This document shows positions 1,751 to 40,866 of a stretch of 64,000 nt of DNA, piece after piece (position 1 is the stretch's first letter; every line of letters begins with the position of its first letter). Source of the stretch: Thermoplasmata archaeon (GTDB lineage: Archaea > Thermoplasmatota > E2 > JACPAO01 > JAHFTW01); contig JAHFTW010000002.1 of assembly GCA_023269235.1 (NCBI GenBank), forward strand, positions 119,294-183,293, read 5' to 3'. The position numbers were made by a program, and so were the translations under genes. The notes beneath the pieces are model-generated. The model made no database searches. It worked only from the letters and a program-made list of their open reading frames with translations, and was not told where the DNA came from.

Positions 1751-2175
1751 CCGCCCAACGCCCCCGCATCCTCCTCGTCGAGGACAACGCCCGCGACGTC
1801 CGCCTCATGCAGATCGTCCTGAGCGAGCTCGACGACTTCCCGCACCTCCTGGAGACGGCGAACGACCTCGTCTCCGGCGTGGCGCGCGTGCGGGCCGGCG
1901 GCGTGGACCTGGTCCTCCTGGACCTCAACCTCCCCGAGTCGCAGGGCGTCGCCACCCTGGCCCGCTTCGTGCGCGAGGCCCCCGCGGTCCCCGTCATCGT
2001 CGTCACCACCCTGGCCGACCGCGAGCTGGCTGCGGAGGCCGTCGCGAAGGGCGCCCAGGATTACCTTGTCAAGGGCCGCATGCACGGTCCCCTTCTGCCC
2101 CATGTGCTGCGCGGCGGCATGGAGCGGCACCGCCTGACCGCCGAGCTGCGCGCGCTGCGCTCCCCGAAGGCGTAG
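1747..2175 (+). CDS. Stand-alone response regulator receiver (CheY-like) domain
   Basis: ILLVEDN ... LVLLDLNLP ... VIVVT ... DYLVKG motifs. ATGA overlap with the kinase stop, so an operonic pair. Confidence 0.85.
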   Translation: MTAQRPRILLVEDNARDVRLMQIVLSELDDFPHLLETANDLVSGVARVRAGGVDLVLLDLNLPESQGVATLARFVREAPAVPVIVVTTLADRELAAEAVAKGAQDYLVKGRMHGPLLPHVLRGGMERHRLTAELRALRSPKA

Positions 2176-2180
2176 CCGGC

Positions 2181-3041
2181 ATGGCGGGACGCGCCCTGGC
2201 CGTGACCGTCGTGCTCGCGGGCCTCGTCCTGGCGGGCTGCGTCTCCGGTCCCGTCCAGGCGCCCCCCAGCAAAGCCACGCTCCTCCCCGCGCCCATCACC
2301 CTCAACATTGGAGCACGGGATTGCCTGAACTTCATCCTGTTCCAGTTCCTCCCCTTCGCTGCCGCCGATGCGTTTCTTCCGCCCGGCTACCACGCCCGGG
2401 ACCCCAAGGATTTCCTGAACTCCCCGGCGGCCACGGGGCAGGCCGCCGCCGTGGTGTTCCTGCTCGACTGCGCAAGCCGCGACGCGGACGGCAAGCCGTG
2501 GGTGAGCGGGTACTCCGGCGTGTACGTCGAGCCGCCCGCCGTCCCCGACACTCCTGATGCGGTGCCCTTGAACTTCTACGAGGTCGAGCACTTCGGGGAG
2601 GAACTGAACGGGACGCTGGCCAGCCTGGGATGGCCGGTCCATGCCTCGAACGTCAGCGTGGCCCGGAACACCGTGAGCCAGGACACCGTCGGGAAATCGG
2701 GCAGCATCACGGACGCCAACGGGTTGCTGTTCCAGTTCTTCGCGACGGCCGCGGCCCCGTATCAGTTGGCCTTGGGCCCGGTCCGGTTGTGGCACGAAAC
2801 CCCCAAGGGAACAGGGTACTTCCAGTACAACGCGACGCTCGATGCCCAGTTCGGACCGGTCGTGTGCATCCTGCCGCAATACGGCACCGTGCTTGGGGCG
2901 CTCATCGGGGAACCGACCCGTCTTCCCAACGGAGGGAACCTGGTGGCTTGCGCCCCAGACCGCGCCCGGCTGGGCGCCACCTTCCCGAACCTGTCGTTCC
3001 TAGGAGAGTTCCGGTTCCTGCCCGGCGTCCACGCGCGGTAG
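2181..3041 (+). CDS. Secreted lipoprotein of unknown function (lipobox LAGC). Paralog of 29436..30275.
   Basis: Signal peptide MAGRALAVTVVLAGLVLAGC. In frame with long ORF 1338..3041, whose upstream part is spurious. Shares collinear motifs with the lipoprotein at 29436. Confidence 0.6.
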   Translation: MAGRALAVTVVLAGLVLAGCVSGPVQAPPSKATLLPAPITLNIGARDCLNFILFQFLPFAAADAFLPPGYHARDPKDFLNSPAATGQAAAVVFLLDCASRDADGKPWVSGYSGVYVEPPAVPDTPDAVPLNFYEVEHFGEELNGTLASLGWPVHASNVSVARNTVSQDTVGKSGSITDANGLLFQFFATAAAPYQLALGPVRLWHETPKGTGYFQYNATLDAQFGPVVCILPQYGTVLGALIGEPTRLPNGGNLVACAPDRARLGATFPNLSFLGEFRFLPGVHAR

Positions 3042-3083
3042 GCGAAGCGACGGCCGCTGCGCTCATCGCAGCAAGACGCATCA

Positions 3084-3120
3084 AAAGGAAGGGGAAGGAA
3101 GGGGAAGGGGAAAAGAAGAC
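3084..3120 (-). terminator. Poly-pyrimidine (C/T-rich) tract immediately 3' of rpl12 (purine GGAA-repeat on + strand). Putative archaeal oligo-T terminator.
   Basis: Plus strand aaaaggaaggggaaggaaggggaaggggaaaagaag. On the minus strand this is cttcttttcccc..., beginning about 15 nt after the L12 stop. Confidence 0.4.
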
Positions 3121-3133
3121 GGGGCGGACGGCG

Positions 3134-3436
3134 TTAGCCGAACAGGGCGCCGAGGCCAGCGGCGGCCTCTTCCTCGGAGACGCCCTTCTCCTCGGGCTTC
3201 TCCTCGGCCTTCGCGGCGGGGGCGGCGGCGCCCGCGGGGGCGGCCATCGCGACCGGCGCGGCGGTGGCGTTCTTGATCGCGGCGCCGATGTCGGCGCCCT
3301 CGAGGGCGGCGACCAGGGCCTTGACACGGCCGGCGTCGGCAGGGATGCCGGCGCCCTTCAGGACCGCGTTGACGTTCGCTTCGTTGATCTCTTTCTTGGC
3401 GCTGTGCAGGAGCAGCGCGCTGTAGACGTATTCCAT
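3134..3436 (-). CDS. rpl12: 50S ribosomal protein L12 (archaeal P1 stalk protein)
   Basis: [22 protein letters not shown] ... Ala-rich hinge ... acidic C-terminal [24 protein letters not shown] start 3 codons upstream (MNTM, 3445) is also possible. Confidence 0.9.
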
Positions 3437-3451
3437 GGTGTTCATTCCTCC

Positions 3452-4498
3452 TTAACCAAACAGCGCGCCTAGTCCGGCGGCCGCTTCCTCTTCGCTGACG
3501 CCCTTCTCCTCGGGCTTCTCCTCGGCTTGCGCCTTAGAGGAGCCGGCCGAGGCGGGCGCCGCCACGGCCACTTGGCTGAGGATCTTCAGGGAGTCGCCCA
3601 GGCGCTGCTTGAGCGCCTCGGACAGGTCGGACTCCTTCTTGCCGATGGAGGCGAGGACCTTCGCGTAGTCGGCCGTGATGGTCTTCTCGACCGCGGCGTC
3701 CACGCTCAGGTTCTGCTCCAAGACCAGGGCGATGGCCTGCTTGTAGGCACGGCCCAGGAGAGCGTCGGCCGTCTCGCTGGTGATGAAGCCAGTCTGGAGC
3801 GACAACTCGTGGGCGGTGCGCACGGCGAGGCCGAGCTGGCCGAAGATGACGGTCTCGTCCACGCCGAGGGCCTCGGGGCCGAAGACGGTCCCGGCCTCGA
3901 AGGCGGCCTTGAGGTCGATCTTCAGCTCGACGGGGCGGATCTCGAGCTTGGCGAGCAGGCCGGCCAGCTCGTTGGAGACGACCTGGCCCGCCTTGACGGG
4001 GGTGGCGTCCTTGGAGATGACGACCTTGCCGGCCTCGATCTTCGCCGGGATGCCGACCTTCTGCAGCTCACCGACGATGGGGCCGGGGCCGAAGGGCGTG
4101 TTGCCCTTGGGGATGAAGATGTCGTTGGGCGCAACCTGGCCGCCCTTGAGGGGGGCCATGGAGGCGCCGGCCTTCAGGCTCTTGAAGAGCTTGAAGGGGT
4201 TCTGCTTCGTGGCGAGGATGACGGACTGGCCGTGCATCTTGGCGGCGAGCGCCTCGATGCCGGGCTTGGCCTTGGCGGCCTCGGCGATGGCAATCTTCAG
4301 CAGGCTGTTCTTGCTGCCGACGACCGACACCTTGCCGCGCAGGCTGACGCGCATCTGCTGCATCTGCGGGGCGGGGATGCCGGAGACCTCGGCGATGGCG
4401 ACGACGGGGTTGTCCACGAGGAGCTTGGTCAGCATGGCGACCTCCTCCTTCTTCCAGGGGGCGACGTGGGCGTGGCCCTCGGTGGTGCCCTTCGTCAT
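3452..4498 (-). CDS. rpl10: 50S ribosomal protein L10 (acidic ribosomal protein P0)
   Basis: 348 aa. P0 N-domain. C-terminus is identical in style to the L12 tail ([23 protein letters not shown]). Confidence 0.9.
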   Translation of the reverse strand: MTKGTTEGHAHVAPWKKEEVAMLTKLLVDNPVVAIAEVSGIPAPQMQQMRVSLRGKVSVVGSKNSLLKIAIAEAAKAKPGIEALAAKMHGQSVILATKQNPFKLFKSLKAGASMAPLKGGQVAPNDIFIPKGNTPFGPGPIVGELQKVGIPAKIEAGKVVISKDATPVKAGQVVSNELAGLLAKLEIRPVELKIDLKAAFEAGTVFGPEALGVDETVIFGQLGLAVRTAHELSLQTGFITSETADALLGRAYKQAIALVLEQNLSVDAAVEKTITADYAKVLASIGKKESDLSEALKQRLGDSLKILSQVAVAAPASAGSSKAQAEEKPEEKGVSEEEAAAGLGALFG

Positions 4499-5134
4499 CT
4501 AGACCACCTTCACGGAGGGGCCCATGGTCGTCTTCACGTACACGGCGCTGACGTTCATGCGGCCGTGCTCGAGCTTGGACTCGACACGCTTGAGGACCGC
4601 GTCGATGTTGTCGGCGAGGTCGGCGGCGGACATGGTCTCGGCGCCCACCATGCAGTGGAACACGAGCTTGTCCTTGGAGCGGAGCTTGACGGTGTTGCGC
4701 AGGTTGTTGACCTGGGGCGTCGGGTCGGCGCCGGGGGGGACGGGGCGGGGCATCTTGCCGCGGGGGCCCAGCACGACACCGAGCGTCTTGCCGATGTTGG
4801 CCATCAGGGGGGCCTCGGCGAGGAAGTAGGTGGTGTTGTTGACGATGCGCTTGAAGTTGCGCTTGTTCTTCGTCAGGGAGTCGAACTCGTCGGGCTGGAT
4901 GACGGTGTCCGCGACCTTCTTGGCCTTGGCGGCGCCTTCACCCTGCGCGAACACGCCGACCTTGGCCGGCTTGCCGCGTCCCTTCGGGAGGATGATGTCC
5001 TCGTCGATGCGGTTCTTCGGGATGCTCAGGTCGACGTTCTTGAGCATGATGGCGAGGTCCACGCTCTGCGTGAACTTGCGCTCGAGGGACTTGGAGGCCT
5101 CGAGGGCCTTCGTGACAGCTTCCAGTGTGGTCAT
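4499..5134 (-). CDS. rpl1: 50S ribosomal protein L1
   Basis: MTTLEAVTKALEASK...FTQSVDLAIMLKNVD...GKTLGVVLGPRGKMP. L1 family. The upstream part of ORF 4499..6295 is spurious. Confidence 0.9.
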   Translation of the reverse strand: MTTLEAVTKALEASKSLERKFTQSVDLAIMLKNVDLSIPKNRIDEDIILPKGRGKPAKVGVFAQGEGAAKAKKVADTVIQPDEFDSLTKNKRNFKRIVNNTTYFLAEAPLMANIGKTLGVVLGPRGKMPRPVPPGADPTPQVNNLRNTVKLRSKDKLVFHCMVGAETMSAADLADNIDAVLKRVESKLEHGRMNVSAVYVKTTMGPSVKVV

Positions 5135-5172
5135 CTCGGCGATAGGAATCACCTGCGGCAGTATGGCGACCC

Positions 5173-5184
5173 GAGACGGGTCTC
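5173..5184 (-). promoter_or_regulatory. Perfect hairpin (gagacgggtctc) in the rpl1 5' leader/promoter region. Possible L1 autoregulatory element or divergent promoter element.
   Basis: 12-nt palindrome between rpl1 (minus) and the epimerase (plus). An A/T-rich ctaaatagg TATA-like box lies about 40 nt upstream of rpl1 on the minus strand. Confidence 0.25.
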
Positions 5185-5299
5185 CTGCCGGCTTTCGTTC
5201 CGACAAGCCCCCCCTATTTAGCCATTTTCGAGGCGAAGCGAGGGTCTCCCGAACAGGGCACACGCAACCGCCAAATGGGAAGGCCCCTGGTGCGCCGGC

Positions 5300-6346
5300 A
5301 TGAAGCAGTTGGAGTCCTACCTGGTCACCGGCGGGGCCGGGTTCCTCGGGCAGGCCCTCGTCAAGCGGCTGGCGGCGCAGGGCAAGCGCATCCGCGTCCT
5401 TGACAACGCACCGCGCCCGCCGGAGCTGGCCGGCATCGAGCTCGACTATGTCCAGGGCGACATCCGCGACCGGGTCGCCGTGGCCAAAGCCGTGGCTGGA
5501 GTGGACTGTGTTCTGCACGGCGCCGCGGCGCTGCCCATCCTGCGCGATGGGAAGTTCATCCACAGCGTGAACGTGGACGGCACCCGGAACCTTCTCGAGG
5601 CCTCCGTCGCCGCGAAGGTGCCCTCCTTCGTCTTCGTCTCGACGACCGCCGTGTACGGCCTGCACAAGGAGCACCCCATCACGGAGAAGAACCGGATGAT
5701 CCCCATCGGCCCCTACGGCGAATCCAAGGTCGCGGCCGAGCTCCTGTGCGCGCAGTTCCGCGACCGCCTCCATGTCGCCGTCGTGCGCCCCAAGACCTTC
5801 CTCGGCCAGGGCCGCCTCGGCGTCTTCGAGATCCTCTTCGACTGGATCCACGACGGCAAACGCATCCCGATGATCGGCAAGGGGCACAACAAGTACCAGC
5901 TCCTCGACGTCGAGGACCTCGTGGACATCCTGCTCCTGTCTGCCAGCCACCCGAAAGGCTCGGACACCTTCAACGCCGCCGCCAACCGGTTCGGCACCCT
6001 GCGCGAGGATCTCGCTCCGCTGTTTGCCGCCGCCGGCCACAAGCCGCGTTTCCTCACGACGCCGCGCAAGACCACCATCAGCGCACTCTGGGTGCTTGAC
6101 AAGCTCCGCCTGAGCCCCCTCACGCAGTGGCACTACGGCACGATGTCCTCCGACTCCTACGTCGAGACCGACAAGGCGCGCGAGCTCCTCGGCTGGAGCG
6201 CCAAGCGCAGCAACCAGGACACCTTGCTTGCCGCCTACACCTGGTACCACGCCCACCACGACGAGGTCAAGAAAGTGGGCGGCGGCACGACGCACACGGT
6301 GCCGTGGAACCAGAAGGCGCTCGGCTTCTTCAAGCGCTTCGCGTAG
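5300..6346 (+). CDS. NAD-dependent epimerase/dehydratase (extended SDR, GalE/UDP-sugar 4-epimerase family)
   Basis: N-terminal TGGAGFLGQALVKRL Rossmann motif. YxxxK region. 348 aa. Confidence 0.85.
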   Translation: MKQLESYLVTGGAGFLGQALVKRLAAQGKRIRVLDNAPRPPELAGIELDYVQGDIRDRVAVAKAVAGVDCVLHGAAALPILRDGKFIHSVNVDGTRNLLEASVAAKVPSFVFVSTTAVYGLHKEHPITEKNRMIPIGPYGESKVAAELLCAQFRDRLHVAVVRPKTFLGQGRLGVFEILFDWIHDGKRIPMIGKGHNKYQLLDVEDLVDILLLSASHPKGSDTFNAAANRFGTLREDLAPLFAAAGHKPRFLTTPRKTTISALWVLDKLRLSPLTQWHYGTMSSDSYVETDKARELLGWSAKRSNQDTLLAAYTWYHAHHDEVKKVGGGTTHTVPWNQKALGFFKRFA

Positions 6347-6370
6347 CGCGCGTAGAAGGTCGAGGGCGGA

Positions 6371-6434
6371 GCGCCTCCGGCTTTGCGCAGCAAGGCCGGA
6401 GGCAAAAGGCTCTCAGCTTCTTCAAGCGCTTCGC
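6371..6434. repeat. Convergent intergenic hairpin plus a 20-nt direct duplication of the epimerase 3' end
   Basis: IR gcgcctccggc...gccggaggc (6371-6403). gcttcttcaagcgcttcgc at 6324-6342 is repeated at 6415-6434, recreating a ...FFKRFA* reading frame. Confidence 0.6.
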
Positions 6435-6442
6435 CTGAGCGG

Positions 6443-9400
6443 TTACGGCTGGCATGCGGACGGCGCATCGGGCGCCGCGAACGCTGGCTCGAGGGCCTTG
6501 AGCGCGACGGCCATGCACTGGCCGTTGATGGTGTCGTGGCGGCCGCCGCCGGCGACGCTGAGCTCGGTGGCGACCCACGGCTTGACGGAGGTCGCCGCGT
6601 GCGCGCCGCACGACTGGCCGACGTGGAACGTTGCCCCGTTGCGCTCCAGCCAGAGGCCCCCGGCGCGGGCGGAGAGCCGGTCGCCGGGCACGAGCGTGTA
6701 CGGGCCCGGCACGGCGTCGAGGCCGGCAAGACAGGTGTCCCCCAAGGCCGCGTTGAGGGGCAGCGCGAGGTCGGGGCCGAAGGTGAGGACGGGGACCTTG
6801 GCGGCCGACCAGCTCGTGAGCTGGGCCGAGACGGCGGGGCCCGCCCGGTAGGGGCCGTAGCCGCCCTCGATGAGGACGAGGTCGGGGGCGCCGGAGACCG
6901 CGGGGCCGAAGACGTCGGCCGCGGCGACGCGGGTCTGGGGCAGGGCGCGGGGCAGGGCCGCCAAGGCGTCGATGCCCCAGAAGTGGCTCTCGCCCAATTC
7001 CGGCACGCTTGGATCCGTCATGGACGAGCGCTCATGGAGCAGGAAGAGGACGTTCTTCGCAGGGGCCGGGGCTGCCTGGAGCGCCTGCCGCTCGGCCAGG
7101 GTCTGCTCCAAGAAGCGCGCGCCGTACTCTTGGCTGGGCTCGATGCTGGAGCCTTCGAAGAACTCGTTGAAGGTCGCGATGACGGGGAAGGTCGGCGGGT
7201 GCGCGATGGTGGAGTCCCAGCTCCGCGAGTAGAACGACGCGCCGCCCGGACCGTCGGGGAACGCGGGGATGACAAACCCGTTCGGGCGGTTGACGGTGTC
7301 GTCGTACGAGGGCGCCACGCCAAACGAGCTCAGGCGGCCCGTCGCGTCGGCGAAGGCGGTGAGGCGGTGGTTGCGGTCCTCCCACAACGCGAAGGTGTCG
7401 TTGAAGGGCGCCTTCGGCTGGTTGCCCCACGTGAAGGACGGGCTGTAGATGAACGACCCGTCGAAGGCGGAGAGGCTCACGAGCGACTTGACGGTGCCCG
7501 CCTGGAAGTCGGCGCGCTCGTTGAGGGCGTCGCCGTTGACCATGAAGAGCGGCGTCCCGACGGCGGCCTCGAGGCGGGCGCGCAGGTCCTCCCAGAACGC
7601 GACGTGCTGCACCAAGTGGGCTGCGCGCCACAGGCCGTTGGCGCCAGGGTCGTTGAAGGACTTGTACGTCGTCGGGTAGTACTGCAGGACTGAGGGGACG
7701 GTGGCCTGGAGGCTGGAGTCGTTGAAGGCGGCGCGCAGCGTCTCGAGGGAGTGGAGGGAGAGGAGGGTGCGGGCCAGGCTCGCCTTGTCCTCAGGGTGGA
7801 AGCTGACCCCGCCGACATACGAGTCGTAGAAGAAGACCACCGGGCGGCCGCCCATGTGGAGCGCGGAGGGTTGGAGCAGCTGCGCCTTGAGGTCAACGAC
7901 GAACGCCGAGATGGCGTCCCGCGTGCCGTTGTCGAGGCGGTAGAAGGAGGCGGGGACCAGCTGCCCGAGCTCGTTCACGGGGTGGTGCTCCGCCTGGTCG
8001 TACACCTGGTTGAGCTCAATGAGGGGCGCGACGCGCAGGCCCGCCTTCGTCGCCTCATCCTGGAACGTGCGGTAGCGTTCGGCCTCGCCGCGGTGGTAAC
8101 TCACGACCGCGGTGTCAATGCCGGCCCCAATCATGGCGGCGACCTGGTCGCGGGCCACGCCCCGCGTGTTCGTGTAGTAGCCGATGGTGGGGACCTGGCT
8201 GACCACCTCCCAGTTGCCGTAGCGCACCGCGGGATCATGGGCCGGGTTCTGCCACCACAAGTAGGTGAAGGCGCCCACCAGCGGCTGAGCGGTGGCGGGG
8301 ATGAAGGCGGCGGGCGGGGCGGCCGCGCCGCCGAGTGCCGGCAGGAAGCCGACGCCGATGAGGAGGAGGCCGAGAACGCCCGTCGGGAGCAGGTGGCGGA
8401 CGCCCACGGGGGAGCGCGAACGCTGGCCGCTGAGGATGCGCAGCGCGAGCCACGCCATCGCGAACAGGGTGATGGACACCAGGGCCACAAGGATGGTTTG
8501 GAGCCACCACCAGAAGTCCGGCGAAAGGCTGCGCAACCGTTCGGCCGCAACGTCCACGGGCACGCCGCCCAAGACGACGTTGGCGACGTCTGGGGGCAGG
8601 AAGGTGAGGAAATGGAAGCCGCCGATGGCGATGACGAGCGCGAACAGCGTCGGCGTCCAGCGCGTCAGGAAATGGCCGAGGCGGTCGAGGACGTGGAGTT
8701 GGTCCAGGACGAGGATGGGCGCGACGAGGAGCACAAGGTACTGTTCGTTGACGACGCGGTTCCACACGAGGATGGCGATGCCGGCCATCAGGGTCAGCAT
8801 CAGGCTGGTGCCCTTGCCGCGCAGCCGCGTTGAGAGGTAGCCCACCGCGACGAGGGAGGCCACCATCAGGAGCGGGCTGAGGAGCTTGACGACGCCGTCG
8901 GAGAGGACCTCGCGCGGCACGAGCTGCCAGAGCGTCAGGCCCTGCACGCCGCGCGCCAGGTGCATTCCGACGACCTGCTGCCAGAAGCCGCCGGGGTCGG
9001 AGAGGAAGAAGGGGGCGCTCACGGCGGCGACGATGCCGGCGCCCGCGGCGCCGAAGCGGAACGCCGACTCCCAGCCGTGGCGCCGCACCAGGTACGGCAG
9101 CATCGGCAGGACGAGGAGGGCGGGGAAGGGCTTGACCAGAAAGGCGAGGCCGACGAGGACGCCAGCCTTGCCGGGCTTGCCGTTGCCGTAGGCGAGCAGG
9201 CCGCCGAGGTAGAGGGCCATGAGCGCGACGTCGGTCATGCCCCACGCGGCGGCCACGAGCAGGAGGAACGGGTTCCAGAGGAAGCGCCGTTCGACCTTGC
9301 GGGCCTCGTCTTCGTCGGAGCCGAAGCGGCGCGCCCAAGCCCCAGCGACCCAGGCGAGCGCCACAAGGGAGGCGATCATGGGGAGCTTCCACAGCACGCG

Positions 9401-9706
9401 CTCGGCGAAGGGGGGAAGATGGAACAGGAGGGCGGGCCAGTAGGTCATCGCCATGCCAAGCAGCATGAGGGGCGGGTAGGCCCACCACTGCGTCGTGGTG
9501 TCGGTGGGCCCGAGGAAAGCGTAGAACGGCTGCTGCGCCGCGATGCCGTACGGGGAATGGCCCTGCAGGAACTGCGTGACCACGGTGCGGAACACGTAGC
9601 CGTCCCAGTCGTGGTCGAGGAGGGCCGCGAGCAGCAGGGCGACCAGGAAGGGCATGCGGGCGTCCCGCAGGCGCACCCTCCAGGCCTCCGGCAGCCGCTC
9701 CAGCAT
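6443..9706 (-). CDS. Giant integral-membrane GT-C-type glycosyltransferase. N-terminal domain has about 10-12 TM helices (DUF2029/GT87/PMT-like). Large C-terminal extracytoplasmic domain.
   Basis: In-frame start MLERLPEAWRV at 9706 (alternative MPFLVALL 51 nt downstream). Dense hydrophobic helices through about aa 560, then about 520 aa soluble domain rich in W/Y/N. The rest of ORF 6443..10684 is a spurious extension. Confidence 0.65.
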   Translation of the reverse strand: MLERLPEAWRVRLRDARMPFLVALLLAALLDHDWDGYVFRTVVTQFLQGHSPYGIAAQQPFYAFLGPTDTTTQWWAYPPLMLLGMAMTYWPALLFHLPPFAERVLWKLPMIASLVALAWVAGAWARRFGSDEDEARKVERRFLWNPFLLLVAAAWGMTDVALMALYLGGLLAYGNGKPGKAGVLVGLAFLVKPFPALLVLPMLPYLVRRHGWESAFRFGAAGAGIVAAVSAPFFLSDPGGFWQQVVGMHLARGVQGLTLWQLVPREVLSDGVVKLLSPLLMVASLVAVGYLSTRLRGKGTSLMLTLMAGIAILVWNRVVNEQYLVLLVAPILVLDQLHVLDRLGHFLTRWTPTLFALVIAIGGFHFLTFLPPDVANVVLGGVPVDVAAERLRSLSPDFWWWLQTILVALVSITLFAMAWLALRILSGQRSRSPVGVRHLLPTGVLGLLLIGVGFLPALGGAAAPPAAFIPATAQPLVGAFTYLWWQNPAHDPAVRYGNWEVVSQVPTIGYYTNTRGVARDQVAAMIGAGIDTAVVSYHRGEAERYRTFQDEATKAGLRVAPLIELNQVYDQAEHHPVNELGQLVPASFYRLDNGTRDAISAFVVDLKAQLLQPSALHMGGRPVVFFYDSYVGGVSFHPEDKASLARTLLSLHSLETLRAAFNDSSLQATVPSVLQYYPTTYKSFNDPGANGLWRAAHLVQHVAFWEDLRARLEAAVGTPLFMVNGDALNERADFQAGTVKSLVSLSAFDGSFIYSPSFTWGNQPKAPFNDTFALWEDRNHRLTAFADATGRLSSFGVAPSYDDTVNRPNGFVIPAFPDGPGGASFYSRSWDSTIAHPPTFPVIATFNEFFEGSSIEPSQEYGARFLEQTLAERQALQAAPAPAKNVLFLLHERSSMTDPSVPELGESHFWGIDALAALPRALPQTRVAAADVFGPAVSGAPDLVLIEGGYGPYRAGPAVSAQLTSWSAAKVPVLTFGPDLALPLNAALGDTCLAGLDAVPGPYTLVPGDRLSARAGGLWLERNGATFHVGQSCGAHAATSVKPWVATELSVAGGGRHDTINGQCMAVALKALEPAFAAPDAPSACQP

Positions 9707-9792
9707 CTTGGCCACTTGACCCGACAGCGTGGTATAAGGTTCGTGGGCGCGGCCCTGAACTGATGGAGAGAGACCCCGGGGCGGGGGCGCGC

Positions 9793-10677
9793 TTAGAGGC
9801 GCTGCAGCCAGTCGAGGGCGTGCTGGGCAGCCCCGCCCTGGACCGCCACGACGAGGGCGACCCAGACGGCGCCGTTGAGCAGGGTGGCGCGGTCGCGGAA
9901 GAGCATCTGCGCCTCGTCGCGGCCGTCGCGGCGGTGGACAAGGTGGTTGTAGCGCAGCACGCCGTAGAACGCGAAGGGGAGCGTGAACATCATGGCCGGG
10001 TGGGGGCCGAAGAATGTGTAGAGGCTGTACGCGGCGAGGATGAGGGCCGTGGAGACCTGGAGCGTCTGCTCGACGAAGGCGACCGAGTACTCGGCGAGCA
10101 CGGCGCGATGCTCGGAGCCGGCGCCGACGAGCAGTTCGTGGCGGCGCTTGGCGAGGCCGAGGTGGAAGGCGAACAGGAAGGTGCAGACGATGAGCCACGG
10201 CGACGGCGGGACGGGGAGGACCGTGGTGCCGGCAAGCGCGCGCAGGACGAAGCCGAGCGCGATGGCGAGGAGGTCCCACAGGAAGACCTGCTTGAGGCCG
10301 AGGTTGTAGAGGACCTGGAGGGCGACGTAGGCGAGGCCGAGCGTGAACGTGACCGTGTTGGCGCGCCACAGCAGGGCGAGGCCGCAGGCGAGCAGGACGA
10401 CTGCGAGCAGGAGGGCGGCCGGGACGGAGACGGCGCCGGAGGCGACGGGGCGCGTGCGCTTGGTGGGATGCAGACGGTCCTTGGCGGCGTCGCGGGCGTC
10501 GTTGGCGCAGTACGCCGCAGAGCTGAGCATGATGAACGCGACGACGGCGAGGGCGGCGCGCGGCCAGAGAGTGGTGTTCCCGAGGTTGCCGCTGAACAGC
10601 AGCGGCACGAGCACGATGCCGTTCTTGTACCACTGGCGCGGGCGCAGCAGGGCAAGCAACGGAGGCAGGGTCACCAA
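9793..10677 (-). CDS. UbiA-family prenyltransferase, decaprenyl-phosphate 5-phosphoribosyltransferase (DPPR synthase, Rv3806c-like)
   Basis: RPRQWYKNGIVLVPLLFSG. NDARDAAKD matches the NDxxDxxxD motif. HPTKRTRPVASG. Nine TM helices. Confidence 0.8.
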   Translation of the reverse strand: MVTLPPLLALLRPRQWYKNGIVLVPLLFSGNLGNTTLWPRAALAVVAFIMLSSAAYCANDARDAAKDRLHPTKRTRPVASGAVSVPAALLLAVVLLACGLALLWRANTVTFTLGLAYVALQVLYNLGLKQVFLWDLLAIALGFVLRALAGTTVLPVPPSPWLIVCTFLFAFHLGLAKRRHELLVGAGSEHRAVLAEYSVAFVEQTLQVSTALILAAYSLYTFFGPHPAMMFTLPFAFYGVLRYNHLVHRRDGRDEAQMLFRDRATLLNGAVWVALVVAVQGGAAQHALDWLQRL

Positions 10678-10730
10678 CGCGCACAGACCGACGGCTTCCG
10701 GTTCAAGGTTGCGCCTGACCCCGGAGCCGG

Positions 10731-11285
10731 CTAGACTTCCCAGACGTCGGACTTGCGCTTGGCGCCGACGAGGTCGATGGCGCCCGGGGCGGACTCGGCG
10801 GCGTGCGGGTTGCGCCCTCCCCCGAGGCGGCGGGCGGGCTCGGCCTCGACGACCTTGCTAGCCCCCATGTTGTCCACGAGCGCCATCTCGCCCATGAACG
10901 TGAAGCGGATGGACTCCTTGGCAAGGCGGCCAAGGAACAGTTCGCACGCGGAGACGAACGCCTGCGCGTCGAGCTTACGCTGGCCGGGCGCGGCATCGGC
11001 GGGGTAACCGCCCATGTAGATGGTGAGGAAGGCGCGGCCGAGGCGGCGCACGAAGATGAGCGTCGCCGTGCCGCGCCCCAACCGGAGGTGCGTCCCCGAG
11101 CTGTGCAGGACGAAGCCGGTCTCGCCGCCGTCCTGGACCTCCCAGCCGTCGAGCCCCATCTCGCGTGCCTGGAGCGGGCCCCACATCGCCATCGCGGTGT
11201 GCTTGGGCACGGGCGCCTCCCATTTGCTGACGAAGACCCCCGCGTCCAGCACGTCCATGCCAAGGAATGCAAGGCGCGGGGTCAT
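10731..11285 (-). CDS. Hypothetical protein (184 aa), operonic with the DPPR-synthase-like and HAD genes
   Basis: High GC3 ORF in the same orientation, with short gaps to its neighbours. No recognisable motifs. Confidence 0.4.
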   Translation of the reverse strand: MTPRLAFLGMDVLDAGVFVSKWEAPVPKHTAMAMWGPLQAREMGLDGWEVQDGGETGFVLHSSGTHLRLGRGTATLIFVRRLGRAFLTIYMGGYPADAAPGQRKLDAQAFVSACELFLGRLAKESIRFTFMGEMALVDNMGASKVVEAEPARRLGGGRNPHAAESAPGAIDLVGAKRKSDVWEV

Positions 11286-11313: not shown

Positions 11314-11895
11314 TCAGGAGGCGGCGATGCGGCGAAGGATGAGGTCCACGGCCGCGGGGAGCCCGTCCACGACGGGGACGTCCCAGCCGCGCTTCGCCAT
11401 CGCGGCCTCGAGCTGGGGCCGGGAATGCGAGGTGGAGAGAAGGATCGCCTTGCAGCCGTAGGCGTGGGCCGCCTCGGCGTCCTTGACGTTGTCGCCCACC
11501 ATGACGGCCCGCTTCGGGTCGGCGCCGAGCGCGCGGCCGCCGTCCTCGAGCATGCCGGGGCGTGGCTTGTGGCGGCGCCCGAAGGGGACGGTGGCGGCCT
11601 CGATGCGGTCCAGGCGGCCGCCCGCGGCGCGCAGCTCCTCCATCATCCAGGCGTGGAGCTCCGCGAGCTTCGTGCGCCGGAGAAGGCCCGTGGCGACGAA
11701 GGGTTGGTTCGTGGCGAGGCACACATTGATGCCGGGTCGGTTGAGGCGCGCGACGGCCTCCTTCGCGCCGGGAAGCCACTCCCATTGGGCGATGCGGGAA
11801 AGGAACAGCACGGGCCTCGTCTTCGCGAGGACGCCGTCGCGGTCAAGGAAGACCGTGAACGACCGGGTGGGGGCGGTGGCCGTCTTGCCGCTCAT
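11314..11895 (-). CDS. HAD-superfamily phosphatase, GmhB (D,D-heptose 1,7-bisphosphate phosphatase)/histidinol-phosphatase-like
   Basis: FLDRDGVL motif I. ...ATNQ... and GDNVKD motifs. 4-nt overlap with the folE2 stop. Confidence 0.8.
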   Translation of the reverse strand: MSGKTATAPTRSFTVFLDRDGVLAKTRPVLFLSRIAQWEWLPGAKEAVARLNRPGINVCLATNQPFVATGLLRRTKLAELHAWMMEELRAAGGRLDRIEAATVPFGRRHKPRPGMLEDGGRALGADPKRAVMVGDNVKDAEAAHAYGCKAILLSTSHSRPQLEAAMAKRGWDVPVVDGLPAAVDLILRRIAAS

Positions 11896-12818
11896 TCCGC
11901 GGCCCCGAGGGTCGTGTGGCGCTCGGCGTAGGCGTTGTGCTTGTGGATGGACTCCTGCGCCTCGCTGGAGACGAAGACGCTGGCCCCGGCCAGTTTCTTG
12001 TTGCGCTTGGCGAGCAGGTGGATGGCCTCGCGCACGACGTCCTCCACGAAGCGCGGGTTGTCGTGGGCCTGAATGACGAGGGCGCCCTCGTCGCCGCGCT
12101 TGAGAAGCTCGAACGTTGGGGCCGACAGGGCCTCCTCGGCGACCCCGACGAGGTCCGCCGCCTCGACGTCGGCATCGCCCGGCAGGTCGAGCAGGAGGGT
12201 GACGACGTTGCGCTGGTTGTGCGTGATGAACGGGAGGTTCGCCGCCGGCTTGCGGCCCTTCTCCGTCATCTGGTGGCGCGCGGTCTCCATGGCGCACGGG
12301 CAGGCCGACATGCCGACGACTTGGACGCCGACGCGGCGCGTCGTCGTGGGCTTGGCCTTCCCCGTCCCCCGCAGCGCCTCGGCCTCGGTGAGGAGGCGGT
12401 ACACCTCGATCGTGGCCTTGCCGCCGGGGTTGGTGCGGGTGAGGAAGTAGTCGGCCTCCGCCTTGACGTGGGCGTGGCTCGCGTAGTCGTGCCGCTCCAG
12501 AAGCCGGAGGGCGAGGCGGCGGCACAGGTTCTCCAGGCTGGGGGCCTCGGTCGCGACCTCCTCGTCCAGGATGTCCGCGAGCGCCTCGAGGTTGCGGCTC
12601 ATGTGGGTGCCCTTCTGCGTCTTGGGCAGATCCACGAACAGGTCGAAGGTGGCCACGACGCCGGTCGGTTTTTGGCCCGGGCGGTGGACGGTGACGGGTT
12701 TCTTGACGCCGCGCACGCCGACGCGGGTCAGCTTGTAGGGGTGCGGGGAAGCCGCCGCCTGGACGTCGGGCGAAGCCGTTGGCTTCGATCGCGGTGCGGC
12801 CTTCGTTGCCCGGTGCAC
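11892..12818 (-). CDS. folE2: GTP cyclohydrolase FolE2/MptA family (type IB / archaeal Fe(II)-dependent GTP cyclohydrolase)
   Basis: YKLTRVGVRGVKKPV ... GMSACPCAMETAR. FolE2/MptA hallmark Cys-containing motif. Confidence 0.8.
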   Translation of the reverse strand: MHRATKAAPRSKPTASPDVQAAASPHPYKLTRVGVRGVKKPVTVHRPGQKPTGVVATFDLFVDLPKTQKGTHMSRNLEALADILDEEVATEAPSLENLCRRLALRLLERHDYASHAHVKAEADYFLTRTNPGGKATIEVYRLLTEAEALRGTGKAKPTTTRRVGVQVVGMSACPCAMETARHQMTEKGRKPAANLPFITHNQRNVVTLLLDLPGDADVEAADLVGVAEEALSAPTFELLKRGDEGALVIQAHDNPRFVEDVVREAIHLLAKRNKKLAGASVFVSSEAQESIHKHNAYAERHTTLGAAE

Positions 12819-13186: not shown

Positions 13187-13711
13187 GTGCTGGAACTGAA
13201 GATCGACGGCTGGCGCAAGGGGCTACGGTTCAGCAGCGCCCACATCACGCCGGAGCACAAGAAGTGCGGCCGCCTGCACGGGCACACCTACGCCATCCAC
13301 TTGCGCATGCAGGGAAAGCAGGACGAGTGGGGCATCGTGCTCGACTTCGGCGTCATCACGGACACCCTCAAGGCCATCGGCGACGAGATCGACCACCTCG
13401 TCCTGGTGCCGACCGAGAGCAACCACTACTCGAACCTCAAGGTGACGAAGAAGGACGTGAAGTTCCGCGTGACCGACCCCTACACGGGCGAGCCGAAGGA
13501 GTTCAGCTTCCCCCGCCAGGACTGCGCCCTGCTCCCGCTCCCCTCGACCACGGCGGAGGACTTGGCGAAGTACGTGTACCGCGAGTTCATGAAACGCACC
13601 AAGTTCACGACGGACACCGCTTTCGTCGAGGTCGGCGTGGACGAGGGCTACGGCAAGGGCGCGTGGTACTCCGACGCGAAGCCTGTGAAGGGCAAATCCA
13701 AGGTGAAGTAG
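13187..13711 (+). CDS. queD: 6-carboxy-5,6,7,8-tetrahydropterin synthase (QueD/PTPS family)
   Basis: GTG start. CGRLHGHTY (CxxxHGH) zinc motif. Confidence 0.85.
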
Positions 13712-14397
13712 TGGCGGGCGCACCCGCCAAACCCCGGGCCGTCGTCCTCCTCAGCGGCGGCCTCGACTCCACGACGGCGGCGGCGTGGGCCCAGAAACGC
13801 GGCTACGAGGTCGTGGCGCTCTCGTTCGACTACGGCCAGCGGCACAAGAAGGAACTCACGCAGGCCAAGGCTGTCGCGAAGGCGTTGGGCATCCGGGACC
13901 ACCGCGTCCTCAAGGTCCCCGTCGGCGACCTGGGCGGCTCCGCCCTCACCGACAGGCGCATCGCGGTCCCCAAGGCCGGCAAACGCATCGGCGCCTCCAT
14001 CCCGTCCACCTACGTCCCCGCCCGCAACACGGTCTTCCTCTCCCTTGCCCTTGGCCTCGCCGAGGTCACTGGCGCGTCGGCCATCGTCATCGGCGCCAAC
14101 GCGCTCGACTACTCCGGCTACCCCGACTGCCGCCCCGAATACCTGCGCGCCTTCGAACGCATGGCCAACCTCGCCACCAAGGCCGGCATCGAGGGCCGAA
14201 AGGTGAAGGTTAAGGCTCCCCTGCTCCGACTCTCCAAGCGGGACATCGTGCAGCTCGCTCTTCGTCTCAAGGCGCCCATCCACCTGTCGTGGAGTTGCTA
14301 CCGCGGTGGCGCCCGTGCGTGCGGGACCTGCGAGTCCTGCGTCCTGCGCGCCAAGGGCTTCGCCGCGGCGGGCGTAACGGACCCGGCGGGCGCCTGA
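13711..14397 (+). CDS. queC: 7-cyano-7-deazaguanine (preQ0) synthase QueC
   Basis: GTG start overlapping the queD stop. PP-loop [11 protein letters not shown]-terminal zinc cysteines [15 protein letters not shown]. Confidence 0.9.
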
Positions 14398-15234: not shown

Positions 15235-15256
15235 ACCGGAACGGACTCGACCCAGC

Positions 15257-21389: not shown

Positions 21390-21473
21390 GCCAACGTCGC
21401 TCAATCCGGTAGAGCAGCGGTCTTGAAAACCGCCGTCCGCAAGGATTTCCAGGTTCAAATCCTGGCGTTGGCG
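21390..21473 (+). tRNA. tRNA-Ser (anticodon TGA), class II with long variable arm
   Basis: Manual fold: acceptor GCCAACG/CGTTGGC. D stem GCTC/GAGC. Anticodon stem GCGGT/ACCGC with loop CTTGAAA. Long variable arm. T arm CCAGG-TTCAAAT-CCTGG. Discriminator G. Confidence 0.8.
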
Positions 21474-21522
21474 CTTGGGTTGATCGGCAGATCTATGGAT
21501 CTCGGCACCATCGTTTTGGACG

Positions 21523-33693: not shown

Positions 33694-33767
33694 CTCCCCG
33701 GGTTTGAGGGTGCCGGCGCCACCGGGGGCGGCTAAGGCGTTTTCAACCCCCCTCCCGTCGCGAGCGC

Positions 33768-35371: not shown

Positions 35372-35415
35372 CCCCACGCACAAACGCTAAGTCGCAGGGA
35401 CGGGAGTCCACCCCC

Positions 35416-36153: not shown

Positions 36154-36185
36154 GCCCTTAAGCCCTCCAGGGGCCTCGCGCCCTC

Positions 36186-40793: not shown

Positions 40794-40866
40794 GGGGAGA
40801 TACCAAAGCGGCTATGGGCGGGACTGCAGATCCCGTTTTACGGGGGTTCGAATCCCTCTCTCCCCT
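40794..40866 (+). tRNA. tRNA-Cys (anticodon GCA)
   Basis: Acceptor GGGGAGA/TCTCCCC. Anticodon stem CGGGA/TCCCG with loop CTGCAGA. T arm GGGGG-TTCGAAT-CCCTC. Discriminator U (Cys identity element). D arm is irregular. Confidence 0.6.

What the first reader, a model, noticed from the sequence alone, without database searches (positions are those of the whole stretch)
6443..9706. Unusually large GT-C membrane protein with a 500-aa C-terminal ectodomain
About 560 aa of densely packed TM helices (DUF2029/GT87-like) are fused to a W/Y/N-rich soluble domain of unclear fold. The real CDS occupies only the 3' three-quarters of a 1413-codon ORF. The first in-frame ATG (MLERLP) sits 86 nt from the UbiA gene.
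Basis: seen in the sequence. Interest (0 to 1): 0.6.

Follow-up and report, generated by a model that had tools for sequence, protein, structure and literature searches.

The report
Archaeal membrane glycosyltransferase fused to mannanase-like domain
This is a real 1087-residue archaeal membrane glycosyltransferase whose large outer domain is a glycan-cutting-type (GH99-like) barrel with its catalytic residues intact. It sits in a conserved gene cluster with a lipid-linked pentose donor synthase; both the fusion and the cluster are uncharacterised, but each part is of a known kind.

Summary
The CDS runs 9706 to 6443 on the minus strand (1087 aa). The upstream quarter of the 1413-codon ORF is a non-coding shadow of the UbiA gene, and the gap to UbiA is 86 nt.

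The proportions were off. The membrane module is about 460 aa (11 TM helices, N-in/C-out) and the ectodomain about 625 aa.

The fold is no longer unclear:
- Residues 1-462 are a GT-C module of GT87/PIG-M (GT50) type, with an invariant HDWDG motif in the first outer loop.
- Residues ~470-870 are a GH99-like (β/α)8 barrel. Both catalytic glutamates (NEFFEG, E848/E851) are invariant in 39 homologs.
- Residues 871-1087 are a disulfide-bearing α/β domain with a weak GATase/ThuA-like fold.

About 58 full-length homologs exist, all from Thermoplasmatota MAGs. More distant GT-C+GH99-like fusions occur in CPR bacteria, and some of those are also fused to GT2+GtrA.

In Thermoplasmatota the gene is syntenic with a DPPRS-type UbiA and a GalE-like epimerase. 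This resembles bacterial pentofuranose "three-component" systems and mycobacterial LAM synthesis.

The likely function is building a surface glycan from a polyprenyl-phosphate sugar and processing it outside the cell. Whether the donor is mannose or a pentofuranose is unresolved. It is a new variant of a known kind, of moderate interest.

The parts
6443..9706 (-). Complete CDS of the GT-C/GH99-like fusion protein (1087 aa plus stop at 6443-6445)
   Evidence: GC3 frame plot. Start supported by homolog N-termini. Identical protein P0001 in public assemblies and about 58 full-length homologs. AF2 model has pLDDT 87.4 and pTM 0.82.
9707..10684 (-). Non-coding 5' part of the 1413-codon ORF: an alternative-frame shadow of the UbiA gene plus the 86-nt spacer
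   Evidence: The high-GC3 phase switches from phase 2 to phase 1 at about 9700-9790. The translation here is Arg/Pro-rich nonsense.
9731..9739 (-). Promoter-like (TATA-like) element CCTTATACC, 33 nt upstream of ATG 9706
   Evidence: Only 3 matches to CCTT[ATG][ATC]A[AC]C in 64 kb, all 33-34 nt upstream of start codons (GT-C, UbiA, gene at ~15262). TATA-like elements also lie upstream of orthologs in L003, L004, L007, L010 and L012. The transcript start itself is inferred, not mapped.
8321..9706 (-). GT-C transmembrane module, residues 1-462: 11 predicted TM helices, N-in/C-out
   Evidence: Pfam GT87 E=1.4e-12. Family profile against PDB: GPI mannosyltransferase 1 (PIG-M), E=8.6e-17, colinear. 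Foldseek: ALG6, GPI-MT-I, PimE. Hydropathy and positive-inside analysis.
9599..9613 (-). HDWDG (H32-G36): DxD-type catalytic motif in the first outer loop
   Evidence: Invariant in 39 archaeal homologs and in CPR relatives. Aligns with DIDYFVF of GPI-MT-I. The DxD motif after TMD1 is essential in GT-C enzymes (PMC6801728).
7097..8299 (-). GH99-like (β/α)8 barrel, residues ~470-870
   Evidence: Family profile against PDB: BxGH99/BtGH99 E~7e-10, with three colinear segments. Foldseek top hits are BxGH99, E 1e-7, TM 0.6. Pfam GH99 matches 37 of 39 members, but the query scores only 23.7 bits against a threshold of 33.
7151..7168 (-). NEFFEG (N847-G852): counterpart of the GH99 catalytic motif NEWHEG (E333/E336 of BxGH99)
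   Evidence: HMM alignment to 4ad1 residues 332-337. N847, E848, F850, E851 and G852 are invariant in A1. Roles of E333/E336 from PMC6001782 and of the EW[H/G]E motif from PMC11025385.
6446..7096 (-). C-terminal α/β(+β) domain, residues 871-1087, with four invariant Cys and invariant E892/H908/D931
   Evidence: Separate AF2 model has pLDDT 88. Only weak fold matches (best E 2.5e-3) to class-I glutamine-amidotransferase/ThuA-like domains. The whole ectodomain aligns over ~700 columns with three-domain GH42 enzymes. Cys counts.
9793..10674 (-). UbiA-family polyprenyl-phosphate phosphoribosyltransferase (DPPRS/PPPRS-type), immediately upstream
   Evidence: The only PDB hits are Mtb DPPRS 8j8j/8j8k (E=6.5e-28 and 1.3e-18), with NDxxDxxxDRxHPxKRxRPxAxG conserved. 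NCBIfam DPPRS models score 210 bits, below the 234 cutoff. 48% identity to a bacterial protein annotated by NCBI as DPPRS. Ortholog within 3 kb upstream in 10 of 13 related loci.
5300..6346 (+). GalE-like NAD-dependent SDR epimerase, convergent with the GT-C gene (96-nt gap)
   Evidence: Pfam Epimerase E=3e-39. PDB hits are GalE-like. An ortholog (54-84% identity) lies within the fetched flank in 9 of 13 related loci, directly beside the GT-C gene in 7.
11314..11895 (-). HAD-IIIA (GmhB-like) sugar-phosphate phosphatase; possible phosphoribose phosphatase, assignment uncertain
   Evidence: Pfam/NCBIfam/PDB hits. Not conserved beside the GT-C in relatives. Overlaps the FolE2 stop by 4 nt, so it may belong to the pterin/preQ0 genes instead.
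10731..11285 (-). 184-aa protein of unknown function between the HAD and UbiA genes
   Evidence: No Pfam or NCBIfam hit. An 82%-identical ortholog lies 8 kb upstream in L010.

Best explanation
The gene encodes a bifunctional cell-surface glycan enzyme of an uncultured, high-GC Thermoplasmatota archaeon.

Shown by sequence or model:
- An 11-helix GT-C module of GT87/GT50 (PimE/PIG-M) type carries its DxD motif (HDWDG) and other invariant motifs (KPF, HxxR, NRVxNEQY) in outer loops.
- The last helix leads into a rigidly packed ectodomain. This is a GH99-like TIM barrel retaining both catalytic glutamates, followed by a disulfide-bearing α/β domain.

Inferred:
- The GT-C module takes a sugar from a polyprenyl(dolichyl)-monophosphate donor at the outer membrane face. 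It adds the sugar, with inversion, to a membrane-anchored glycan (a lipoglycan or glycoconjugate).
- The GH99-like domain then cleaves or transglycosylates that same α-linked, 1,2-trans glycan. Its role would be trimming, length control or hand-over.

Donor: my estimate is about 50% mannose from Dol-P-Man. Every characterised relative of both modules is mannose-specific. On this reading the neighbouring DPPRS-type UbiA and SDR epimerase supply a lipid-linked pentofuranose that decorates the same polymer through other GT-Cs, as in LAM. About 35% is that the pentofuranose is this enzyme's own donor.

The gene appears to have its own TATA-like promoter and a short or absent leader.
For: Architecture and topology.

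GH99-like domain with invariant E848/E851. The mechanism of the equivalent BxGH99 residues is from PMC6001782.

pTM of 0.82 for the two-module model suggests a fixed arrangement of the modules.

Outside location: four invariant Cys, sequons almost only in the ectodomain, and K+R bias.

Selection on the catalytic motif: distant paralogs have degenerate motifs (NDFHSG, NGFKWG, NNFFDG), while this clade keeps NE..EG strictly.

Mannose side:
- PIG-M profile match, E=8.6e-17.
- Pfam GT87 hit.
- PimE, ALG6 and GPI-MT-I fold hits.
- The CPR relative L015 lies between phosphomannomutase, GT2, GtrA and Man-1-P guanylyltransferase genes.
- P0059 and P0070 are GT2+GtrA+GT87+GH99-like fusions.

Pentofuranose side:
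- DPPRS-type UbiA lies 86 nt upstream.
- UbiA synteny in 10 of 13 loci, and a shared contig for at least 27 of 58 homologs.
- The SDR epimerase is within the flank in 9 of 13 loci.
- No other GT was found in the 64-kb window.
- There is precedent in bacterial three-component pentofuranose systems (PMC11127046).

Promoter.
Against: - There are no biochemical data for any member of the family.
- The query's Pfam GH99 score is below the gathering threshold, identity to BxGH99 is about 16%, and of five described GH99 motifs only the Glu pair and one further Glu are clearly kept. Substrate specificity cannot be read off.
- Some relatives have lost the catalytic Glu residues, so the fold can serve as a binding module.
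- The donor sugar cannot be inferred from the GT-C family alone.
- In most relatives the cluster also holds 2-3 other GT-C genes that could be the users of the UbiA product.
- No flippase and no Dol-P-Man synthase were found in the window.
- TM topology comes from hydropathy and charge bias, not from a dedicated predictor or experiment.
Confidence: 0.6

Rival explanations
1. It is a pentofuranosyltransferase. The GT-C module uses the product of the adjacent pathway directly: PRPP plus polyprenyl-P goes to polyprenyl-P-Ribf-5-P (UbiA), is dephosphorylated (HAD?), then epimerised (SDR) to Araf or Xylf. This would be an archaeal version of the bacterial three-component pentofuranose systems or of mycobacterial arabinan synthesis. 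The GH99-like domain would act on or bind the acceptor.
For: - UbiA is of DPPRS type.
- It lies 86 nt upstream on the same strand.
- UbiA-GT-C-SDR is the part of the cluster retained in this genome, while the PMT_2-type GT-Cs are absent from the 64-kb window.
- A GalE-like SDR alone converts undP-Ribf to undP-Xylf in Citrobacter (PMC11127046).
- An inverting GT-C acting on a β-linked Araf donor would give α-Araf, a 1,2-trans linkage chemically compatible with a GH99-type 2-OH-assisted mechanism (my inference).
- From memory, unverified: mycobacterial AftC is a GT87-family arabinofuranosyltransferase.
Against: - All characterised relatives of both modules are mannose enzymes.
- Distant relatives are fused to, or sit beside, GT2/GtrA and mannose-activation genes.
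- UbiA and the GT-C each have their own promoter-like element.
- In relatives other GT-Cs flank UbiA.
- The HAD gene is not conserved in the cluster and overlaps FolE2.
- No DprE1/E2 homologs were seen.
Confidence: 0.35
2. The GH99-like ectodomain is a non-catalytic acceptor-binding module. Functionally it would be like the CBMs of EmbC, AftD or GT136 ORF12, holding the growing glycan near the GT-C active site.
For: - GT-C enzymes commonly carry extracytoplasmic CBMs (PMC11127046).
- Several distant relatives have lost one or both Glu residues of the NExxEG motif.
- Other GH99 motifs are only partly conserved.
Against: - N847, E848, E851 and G852, and many other barrel residues, are invariant in all 39 aligned members of this clade down to 41% identity.
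- The barrel is the most conserved part of the protein.
Confidence: 0.2
3. It is an annotation artefact: two genes (a GT-C and a secreted glycosidase) merged by a sequencing or assembly error, or a pseudogene.
For: None found.
Against: - The same fused architecture is found in about 58 independent assemblies from several sources, in 15 loci from species-representative genomes, and in many 900-1300-aa representatives.
- GC3 is continuous and high across the junction.
- AF2 packs the modules with pTM 0.82.
Confidence: 0.01

Closest known systems
GT87 / GT50 GT-C mannosyltransferases (mycobacterial PimE; eukaryotic GPI mannosyltransferase I, PIG-M/Gpi14)
   Same: - Multi-span GT-C fold, with a DxD motif just after TM1 in the first outer loop.
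- Motifs colinear with GPI-MT-I: DWDGfVF..GxxPY, KPFP, HLxR, NxVxxxQY.
- Pfam GT87 hit.
- Foldseek hits to PimE, GPI-MT-I and ALG6.
   Different: - Those enzymes are about 400-430 aa and have no large outer domain.
- PIG-M has 12 TMDs with a cytoplasmic C-terminus (PMC6801728). Here an 11-TM core ends outside and continues into a 625-aa ectodomain.
- Donor and acceptor are unknown here.
GH99 endo-α-1,2-mannosidases/mannanases (BxGH99, BtGH99, human MANEA)
   Same: - (β/α)8 barrel and the best fold and profile match.
- The two catalytic Glu are in the same motif position (NEWHEG against NEFFEG).
- The Glu of the H[I/L]EPY motif is kept (E564).
- The YDDTxNR segment aligns with GYIDTRIR.
   Different: - About 16% identity, and the query is below the Pfam gathering score.
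- The W and H of EW[H/G]E are replaced by F and F; the H and Y of HIEPY are not kept.
- It is tethered to a membrane glycosyltransferase rather than being a soluble or Golgi catabolic or trimming enzyme.
- It is followed by an extra α/β domain.
- A few relatives score better with Pfam WbsX (PF14307).
Three-component extracytoplasmic pentofuranose glycosylation systems (Citrobacter youngae ORF12-15; Kelly et al. 2024, PMC11127046) and mycobacterial DPA/arabinan-LAM synthesis (Rv3806c, DprE1/E2, Emb/Aft)
   Same: - A UbiA-type polyprenyl-phosphate phosphoribosyltransferase next to a GT-C, plus a GalE-like SDR epimerase.
- A HAD phosphatase is nearby.
- A flippase-like gene (TIGR00374) lies beside the GT-C in relatives.
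- The GT-C has an added outer domain.
   Different: - Archaeal host.
- The GT-C is of GT87/GT50 type, not GT136/Emb/Aft type.
- The outer domain is glycosidase-like rather than a CBM.
- There is no MATE/GtrA flippase in the window and no DprE1/E2.
- The HAD gene is neither fused nor conserved.
- Which GT-C uses the pentofuranose donor is not established.
Glycoside hydrolases that accompany exopolysaccharide synthases (BcsZ, PslG, PelA, AlgL)
   Same: The concept of a polymer-cleaving enzyme operating alongside the synthesising machinery on the outer side of the membrane. This comparison is from general knowledge.
   Different: Those are separate proteins of other GH families, working with GT-2-type synthases. 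Here the hydrolase-like domain is covalently fused to a GT-C.

Membership tests
GT-C superfamily / Pfam GT87 (PF09594) | Match to the family profile above the curated threshold | tested here: met
   48.3 bits against a cutoff of 25, residues 75-310. 34 of 39 homologs match.
GT-C superfamily / Pfam GT87 (PF09594) | Multi-span membrane fold with a DxD/ExD motif shortly after TM1 in the first extracytoplasmic loop | tested here: met
   HDWDG at residues 32-36 after TM1 (7-29), invariant. Criterion taken from PMC6801728.
GT-C superfamily / Pfam GT87 (PF09594) | Use of a polyprenyl-phosphate-linked sugar donor; α-1,2-mannosyl transfer for characterised GT87 members | not testable with these tools
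   Needs an enzyme assay. Only context evidence is available.
GT50 (GPI mannosyltransferase I, PIG-M) | Sequence and motif colinearity with solved GPI-MT-I | tested here: inconclusive
   Family profile against 23gx gives E=8.6e-17 over residues ~27-325. However, Pfam PF05007 matches only 2 of 39 members, and the topology differs (C-terminus outside).
GH99 (endo-α-1,2-mannosidase/mannanase) | Match to Pfam PF16317 above the gathering score | tested here: not met
   The query scores 23.7 bits against 33. Some homologs do pass (e.g. P0068 at 54.8 bits), and 37 of 39 match at E<=0.01.
GH99 (endo-α-1,2-mannosidase/mannanase) | Two catalytic glutamates in the EW[H/G]E motif (E333/E336 in BxGH99; E404/E407 in MANEA) | tested here: met
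   E848 and E851 align to E333 and E336 and are invariant. The intervening residues are FF rather than W[H/G].
GH99 (endo-α-1,2-mannosidase/mannanase) | (β/α)8 barrel superposable on solved GH99 structures | tested here: met
   Foldseek top hits are BxGH99, E 1e-7, with TM-score about 0.6 normalised to the target.
GH99 (endo-α-1,2-mannosidase/mannanase) | Other substrate-binding motifs (residue 189 W/Y, H[I/L]EPY, Y323) | tested here: inconclusive
   Low-scoring HMM segments align vsYH to vtWW and PLIELN to FHIEPY. Only E564 is clearly conserved.
GH99 (endo-α-1,2-mannosidase/mannanase) | Endo-α-1,2-mannosidic bond cleavage with retention | not testable with these tools
   Needs an enzyme assay.
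Three-component pentofuranose glycosylation system (PMC11127046) | Polyprenyl-phosphate phosphoribosyltransferase (PPPRS/DPPRS) | tested here: met
   The only PDB hits are Mtb DPPRS 8j8j/8j8k, E=6.5e-28 and 1.3e-18. 48% identity to a bacterial protein annotated by NCBI as DPPRS. The NCBIfam score of 210 is below the equivalog cutoff of 234.
Three-component pentofuranose glycosylation system (PMC11127046) | Phosphoribose 5-phosphatase | tested here: inconclusive
   A GmhB-like HAD gene lies two genes upstream. It is not conserved in related clusters and is translationally coupled to FolE2.
Three-component pentofuranose glycosylation system (PMC11127046) | Dedicated flippase (MATE or GtrA/SMR type) | tested here: not met
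   None in the window. Relatives have a TIGR00374 flippase-like gene beside the GT-C.
Three-component pentofuranose glycosylation system (PMC11127046) | A GT-C that uses the polyprenyl-P-pentofuranose | not testable with these tools
   A GT-C is adjacent, but it is of GT87/GT50 type. Its donor is unknown.

The most novel reading that the evidence does not exclude
The UbiA-GT87/GH99-SDR core, together with the PMT_2-type GT-Cs, acyltransferases, methyltransferase and flippase-like gene found in relatives, encodes a lipoarabinomannan-like, pentofuranose-containing lipoglycan pathway in wall-less Thermoplasmatota. As far as I could find, this would be the first lipid-linked pentofuranose donor pathway described in Archaea. 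In it the fused GH99-like domain is an active endo-glycanase or transglycosylase, working by the 1,2-anhydro-sugar mechanism. It would set chain length or transfer the polymer to its final anchor, making this a GT-C with a built-in processing enzyme.
Probability: 0.2. Interest if true: 0.75.

Novelty: new variant of a known kind. Interest (0 to 1): 0.45.

Why it matters
GT-C enzymes build mycobacterial cell walls, eukaryotic N-glycan and GPI precursors, and bacterial O-antigen decorations. Their added outer domains described so far are carbohydrate-binding modules.

A conserved family in which the outer domain is a GH99-like barrel with intact catalytic residues suggests a different arrangement. 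Synthesis and endo-cleavage or transglycosylation of a surface glycan would be coupled in one polypeptide.

Its linkage to a DPPRS-type enzyme in Thermoplasmatota also points to lipid-linked pentofuranose chemistry in Archaea. My literature searches found this described only for bacteria. That is relevant to how S-layer-less Thermoplasmatota build their lipoglycan-rich envelopes (PMC12448462).

The family also offers simple, testable targets: expression of the ectodomain, and E848Q/E851Q mutants.

Tried and rejected
I could not measure the distance or orientation between the GT-C and GH99-like active sites, nor count membrane passes in 3D.
- The look-up of encoding contigs for window 39760-40677 failed because the start codon differs from the public gene call.
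- Literature searches found nothing on the fusion or on an archaeal PPPRS: GT87+GH99, an archaeal UbiA phosphoribosyltransferase, AftC+GT87, GT-C evolution.
- The idea that the HAD phosphatase is the pathway's phosphoribose phosphatase was downgraded. It overlaps FolE2 and is absent from related clusters.
- I searched for PMT_2, flippase-like, methyltransferase and acyltransferase cluster genes in the window and found none. A search with the PMT_2-type GT-C of the closest relative found no hit on this contig. One homolog lies at a separate locus in a genome I could not tie to this one.
- The C-terminal domain gave no significant fold match (best E 2.5e-3).
- Frameshift or fusion artefact was rejected.

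Full report
**1. The observation**

The window has about 70% G+C. ORF 6443..10684 on the minus strand has 1413 codons.

A codon-phase G+C plot shows third-position G+C above 0.9 in this frame only from 6443 to about 9700. From about 9750 to 10650 the high-GC3 phase is that of a different minus-strand gene, at 9793..10677. The first 326 codons translate to Arg/Pro-rich nonsense. They are a shadow frame of that gene.

The first ATG (9706, MLERLP) gives 1087 aa and lies 86 nt from the upstream gene's stop. The N-termini of 38 homologs align with this start; the closest begins MEGLPAAWRLRLRE.

An identical protein (P0001) is present in public assemblies. About 58 full-length, colinear homologs (41-69% identity, roughly 1000-1250 aa) exist, so no frameshift or artificial fusion is involved.

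**2. Anatomy**

*Membrane module.* Hydrophobic segments stop at residue 462. The AlphaFold2 model built on 39 homologs (pLDDT 87.4, pTM 0.82) is all-helical up to residue 458.

An 11-TM, N-in/C-out model treats the hydrophobic stretch 79-97 as part of the first outer loop, which is common in GT-C enzymes (PMC6801728). Across 39 homologs this model gives a K+R density of 0.207 in cytoplasmic loops against 0.062 in outer loops.

The ectodomain has exactly four Cys in nearly all homologs, all of them invariant. N-glycosylation sequons occur almost only there.

The membrane module is therefore about 460 aa and the ectodomain about 625 aa, not 560 and 500.

*GT-C identity.* The evidence is:
- Pfam GT87, E=1.4e-12, above threshold.
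- A profile of the TM module (archaeal plus CPR members) matches solved GPI mannosyltransferase I (PIG-M/Gpi14) at E=8.6e-17. The motifs are colinear: DWDGfVF..GktPY with DIDYFVF..GKSPY, KpFP with KIYP, HLaR with HLYR, and NrVvNeQY with NKVCTSQY.
- Foldseek finds ALG6, GPI-MT-I and PimE.
- H32-D33-W34-D35-G36 is invariant, including in CPR relatives. It sits where GT-C enzymes carry their essential DxD motif.

*Ectodomain.* Residues ~470-870 form a (β/α)8 barrel.
- The family profile hits GH99 endo-α-mannanase structures (4ad1, 5lyr, 4acy; E about 1e-9 to 7e-10) in three colinear segments. NEFFEG (847-852) aligns to NEWHEG (332-337) of BxGH99.
- In BxGH99, E333 is the base that deprotonates the 2-OH and E336 is the general acid/base of the 1,2-anhydro-sugar mechanism (PMC6001782). 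The EW[H/G]E motif is conserved across GH99 (PMC11025385).
- N847, E848, F850, E851 and G852 are invariant in all 39 aligned homologs.
- Foldseek's best PDB hits for the whole model are BxGH99 structures (E 1e-7, TM about 0.6).

The query's own Pfam GH99 score (23.7 bits) is below the gathering score (33), although 37 of 39 homologs match at E<=0.01. Identity to BxGH99 is about 16%, and the other GH99 motifs are only partly kept (E564 of H[I/L]EPY). I therefore call the domain GH99-like rather than a GH99 member.

*C-terminal domain.* Residues 871-1087 fold as an α/β(+β) domain (pLDDT 88). It has only weak similarity to class-I glutamine-amidotransferase/ThuA-like folds (best E 2.5e-3).

The whole ectodomain aligns over ~700 columns with three-domain GH42 enzymes. 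Invariant E892, H908 and D931 and the motif HERSSRT..ETDxSHxWG are unexplained.

**3. Context**

The organism is an uncultured Thermoplasmatota archaeon. This follows from the homolog names and from archaeal L1/P0/P1, aIF2γ, TiaS and preQ0 genes in the window.

*The minus-strand gene series.* The order is DUF1294, FolE2, HAD (GmhB-like), a 184-aa unknown, UbiA, then the GT-C. A GalE-like SDR epimerase converges on the GT-C 3' end.

*UbiA.* It is of DPPRS type:
- Its only PDB hits are M. tuberculosis decaprenyl-phosphate phosphoribosyltransferase entries 8j8j and 8j8k, E=6.5e-28 and 1.3e-18.
- NCBIfam DPPRS models score 210 bits, just under the cutoff, against 54 bits or less for other prenyltransferase models apart from PRK08238, a generically named UbiA-family model, at 153.5 bits.
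- The nearest non-archaeal relatives include a protein annotated by NCBI as bacterial DPPRS, at 48% identity.

*Synteny in 13 related Thermoplasmatota loci.*
- A UbiA ortholog (50-74% identity) lies within 3 kb upstream in 10 loci.
- An SDR ortholog lies within the fetched flank in 9 and directly beside the GT-C gene in 7.
- Most relatives add PMT_2-type and AZOBR_p60025-like GT-Cs, acyltransferase_3, a methyltransferase and a TIGR00374 flippase-like gene.
- None of these is in this 64-kb window.

*HAD.* It is not conserved in the cluster and overlaps the FolE2 stop by 4 nt. Its role in this pathway is doubtful.

*Promoter-like element.* A TATA-like element (CCTTATACC) lies 33 nt upstream of ATG 9706. 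The same motif precedes UbiA and one other gene, with only 3 matches in 64 kb. TATA-like elements also precede several orthologs. This suggests the gene has its own promoter and a short or absent leader. That is an inference; the transcript start was not mapped.

**4. Wider family**

The ectodomain alone finds 401 cluster representatives (33 at E<=1e-30). Many are 900-1300 aa, with the match starting near residue 500, so they are GT-C+GH99-like fusions. A few are stand-alone.

Species-level genomes show distant fusions (26-30% identity, lacking the C-terminal domain) in CPR bacteria. One of these lies between phosphomannomutase, GT2, GtrA and mannose-1-phosphate guanylyltransferase genes.

P0059 and P0070 are four-domain GT2+GtrA+GT87+GH99-like fusions. 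This implies a polyprenyl-P-hexose donor in those lineages.

In some distant members the NExxEG motif is degenerate (NDFHSG, NGFKWG, NNFFDG). The clade studied here keeps it strictly.

**5. Mechanism**

*Shown (sequence or model):*
- A GT-C module with its catalytic motifs in outer loops.
- An extracytoplasmic GH99-like barrel with both catalytic Glu.
- A confident fixed arrangement of the two modules (pTM 0.82).

*Inferred:*
- Transfer of a sugar from a polyprenyl-monophosphate donor to a membrane-anchored glycan.
- Endo-cleavage or transglycosylation of that glycan by the barrel.

*Donor.* Mannose is favoured by every characterised relative of both modules and by the CPR and fusion contexts. 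A pentofuranose is favoured by the tight, conserved UbiA/SDR synteny. That synteny matches the bacterial three-component pentofuranose systems (PPPRS, HAD phosphatase, optional GalE-like epimerase, flippase, GT-C; PMC11127046) and recalls mycobacterial LAM synthesis.

I put mannose at about 0.5, pentofuranose at about 0.35 and other donors at about 0.15.

Both α-Man and α-Araf products are 1,2-trans. Both are therefore chemically compatible with a GH99-type mechanism (my inference).

Thermoplasmatales membranes contain a glucose- and mannose-bearing tetraether lipoglycan (PMC12448462). That makes a plausible kind of acceptor. However, no homolog was found in cultured Thermoplasmatales by the pattern scan.

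**6. Novelty and verdict**

Public annotation calls these proteins 'glycosyltransferase 87 family protein' or 'hypothetical'. I found no paper on a GT-C/GH99 fusion or on an archaeal DPPRS-type pathway.

Every component belongs to a known superfamily, and GT-Cs with extra outer domains are known.

What is new:
- The outer domain is catalytic-looking and glycosidase-like.
- The setting is archaeal and linked to a DPPRS-type enzyme.

The domain sizes were misjudged and the fold is now assigned. It is a new variant of a known kind and of moderate interest.

Noticed in passing
window 9731-9739 (-), 10700-10708 (-), 15229-15237 (+): The motif CCTT(A/G)(T/A)ACC occurs only three times in 64 kb. Each copy lies 33-34 nt upstream of a start codon (GT-C, UbiA, a plus-strand gene starting near 15262). 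It is probably the local TATA/BRE-type promoter element with leaderless or short-leader transcripts.
   Followed up: partly
window 6446-7096 (-), residues 871-1087: The C-terminal domain has invariant E892, H908 and D931 within a strongly conserved HERSSRT..ETDxSHxWG motif, plus four invariant Cys. It has only a weak class-I GATase/ThuA-like fold match, so a second functional site is possible.
   Followed up: partly
window ~8150-8250 (-), residues 486-518: This barrel loop is highly conserved (N487, H490, P492, G497-N498-W499, G509, Y511, R515-G516 invariant) yet has low model confidence (pLDDT 51-64). It may be a mobile lid or the interface with the GT-C outer loops.
   Followed up: no
window 11314-11895 (-) and 11892-12818 (-): The GmhB-like HAD phosphatase overlaps the stop of the FolE2-type GTP cyclohydrolase by 4 nt. 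QueD, QueC and a radical-SAM (QueE-like) gene lie divergently at ~13187-15910. The HAD gene may belong to pterin/preQ0 metabolism rather than to the glycan genes.
   Followed up: partly
window 10731-11285 (-): A 184-aa soluble protein with no Pfam or NCBIfam match lies between the HAD and UbiA genes. An 82%-identical ortholog lies 8 kb upstream of the GT-C in the closest relative (L010).
   Followed up: partly
L015 8185-13820; proteins P0059, P0070: CPR bacteria carry GT87/PIG-M+GH99-like fusions inside mannose-activation gene sets. Some unidentified lineages fuse GT2+GtrA+GT87+GH99-like into a single 1300-1450-aa protein.
   Followed up: partly
L022 (Logan SRR14366791), 2125-9873: In a related genome the PMT_2-type GT-C, two acyltransferase_3 genes and two ~500-aa GT-C-like unknowns form a separate locus without UbiA or the GT87-GH99 gene. 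This suggests the large cluster seen in other relatives can be split in two. Whether it is the same organism as the window could not be established.
   Followed up: partly
window 43820-44707 (+): A second UbiA-family gene lies next to COX15/CtaA, so it is presumably heme O synthase. It is unrelated to the DPPRS-type UbiA (34% identity over 68 aa to the DPPRS-type UbiA of relative L002).
   Followed up: no
window ~59800-62230: Isocitrate lyase and malate synthase (glyoxylate shunt) are adjacent. An acyl-CoA dehydrogenase gene (26320-27426) and ETF α/β plus CCG/Fe-S oxidoreductase genes (33762-38402) lie elsewhere in the window, hinting at fatty-acid or acetate assimilation in this archaeon.
   Followed up: no
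window 39796-40677 (+); L003 10139-11107: CarboxypepD_reg-domain surface proteins are present. In relative L003 one lies directly downstream of the GT-C ortholog, making it a possible glycosylation target or surface partner.
   Followed up: no
window 21390-21474, 40794-40867, 41761-41837: tRNA-Ser(TGA), tRNA-Cys(GCA) and tRNA-Lys(CTT) genes.
   Followed up: no
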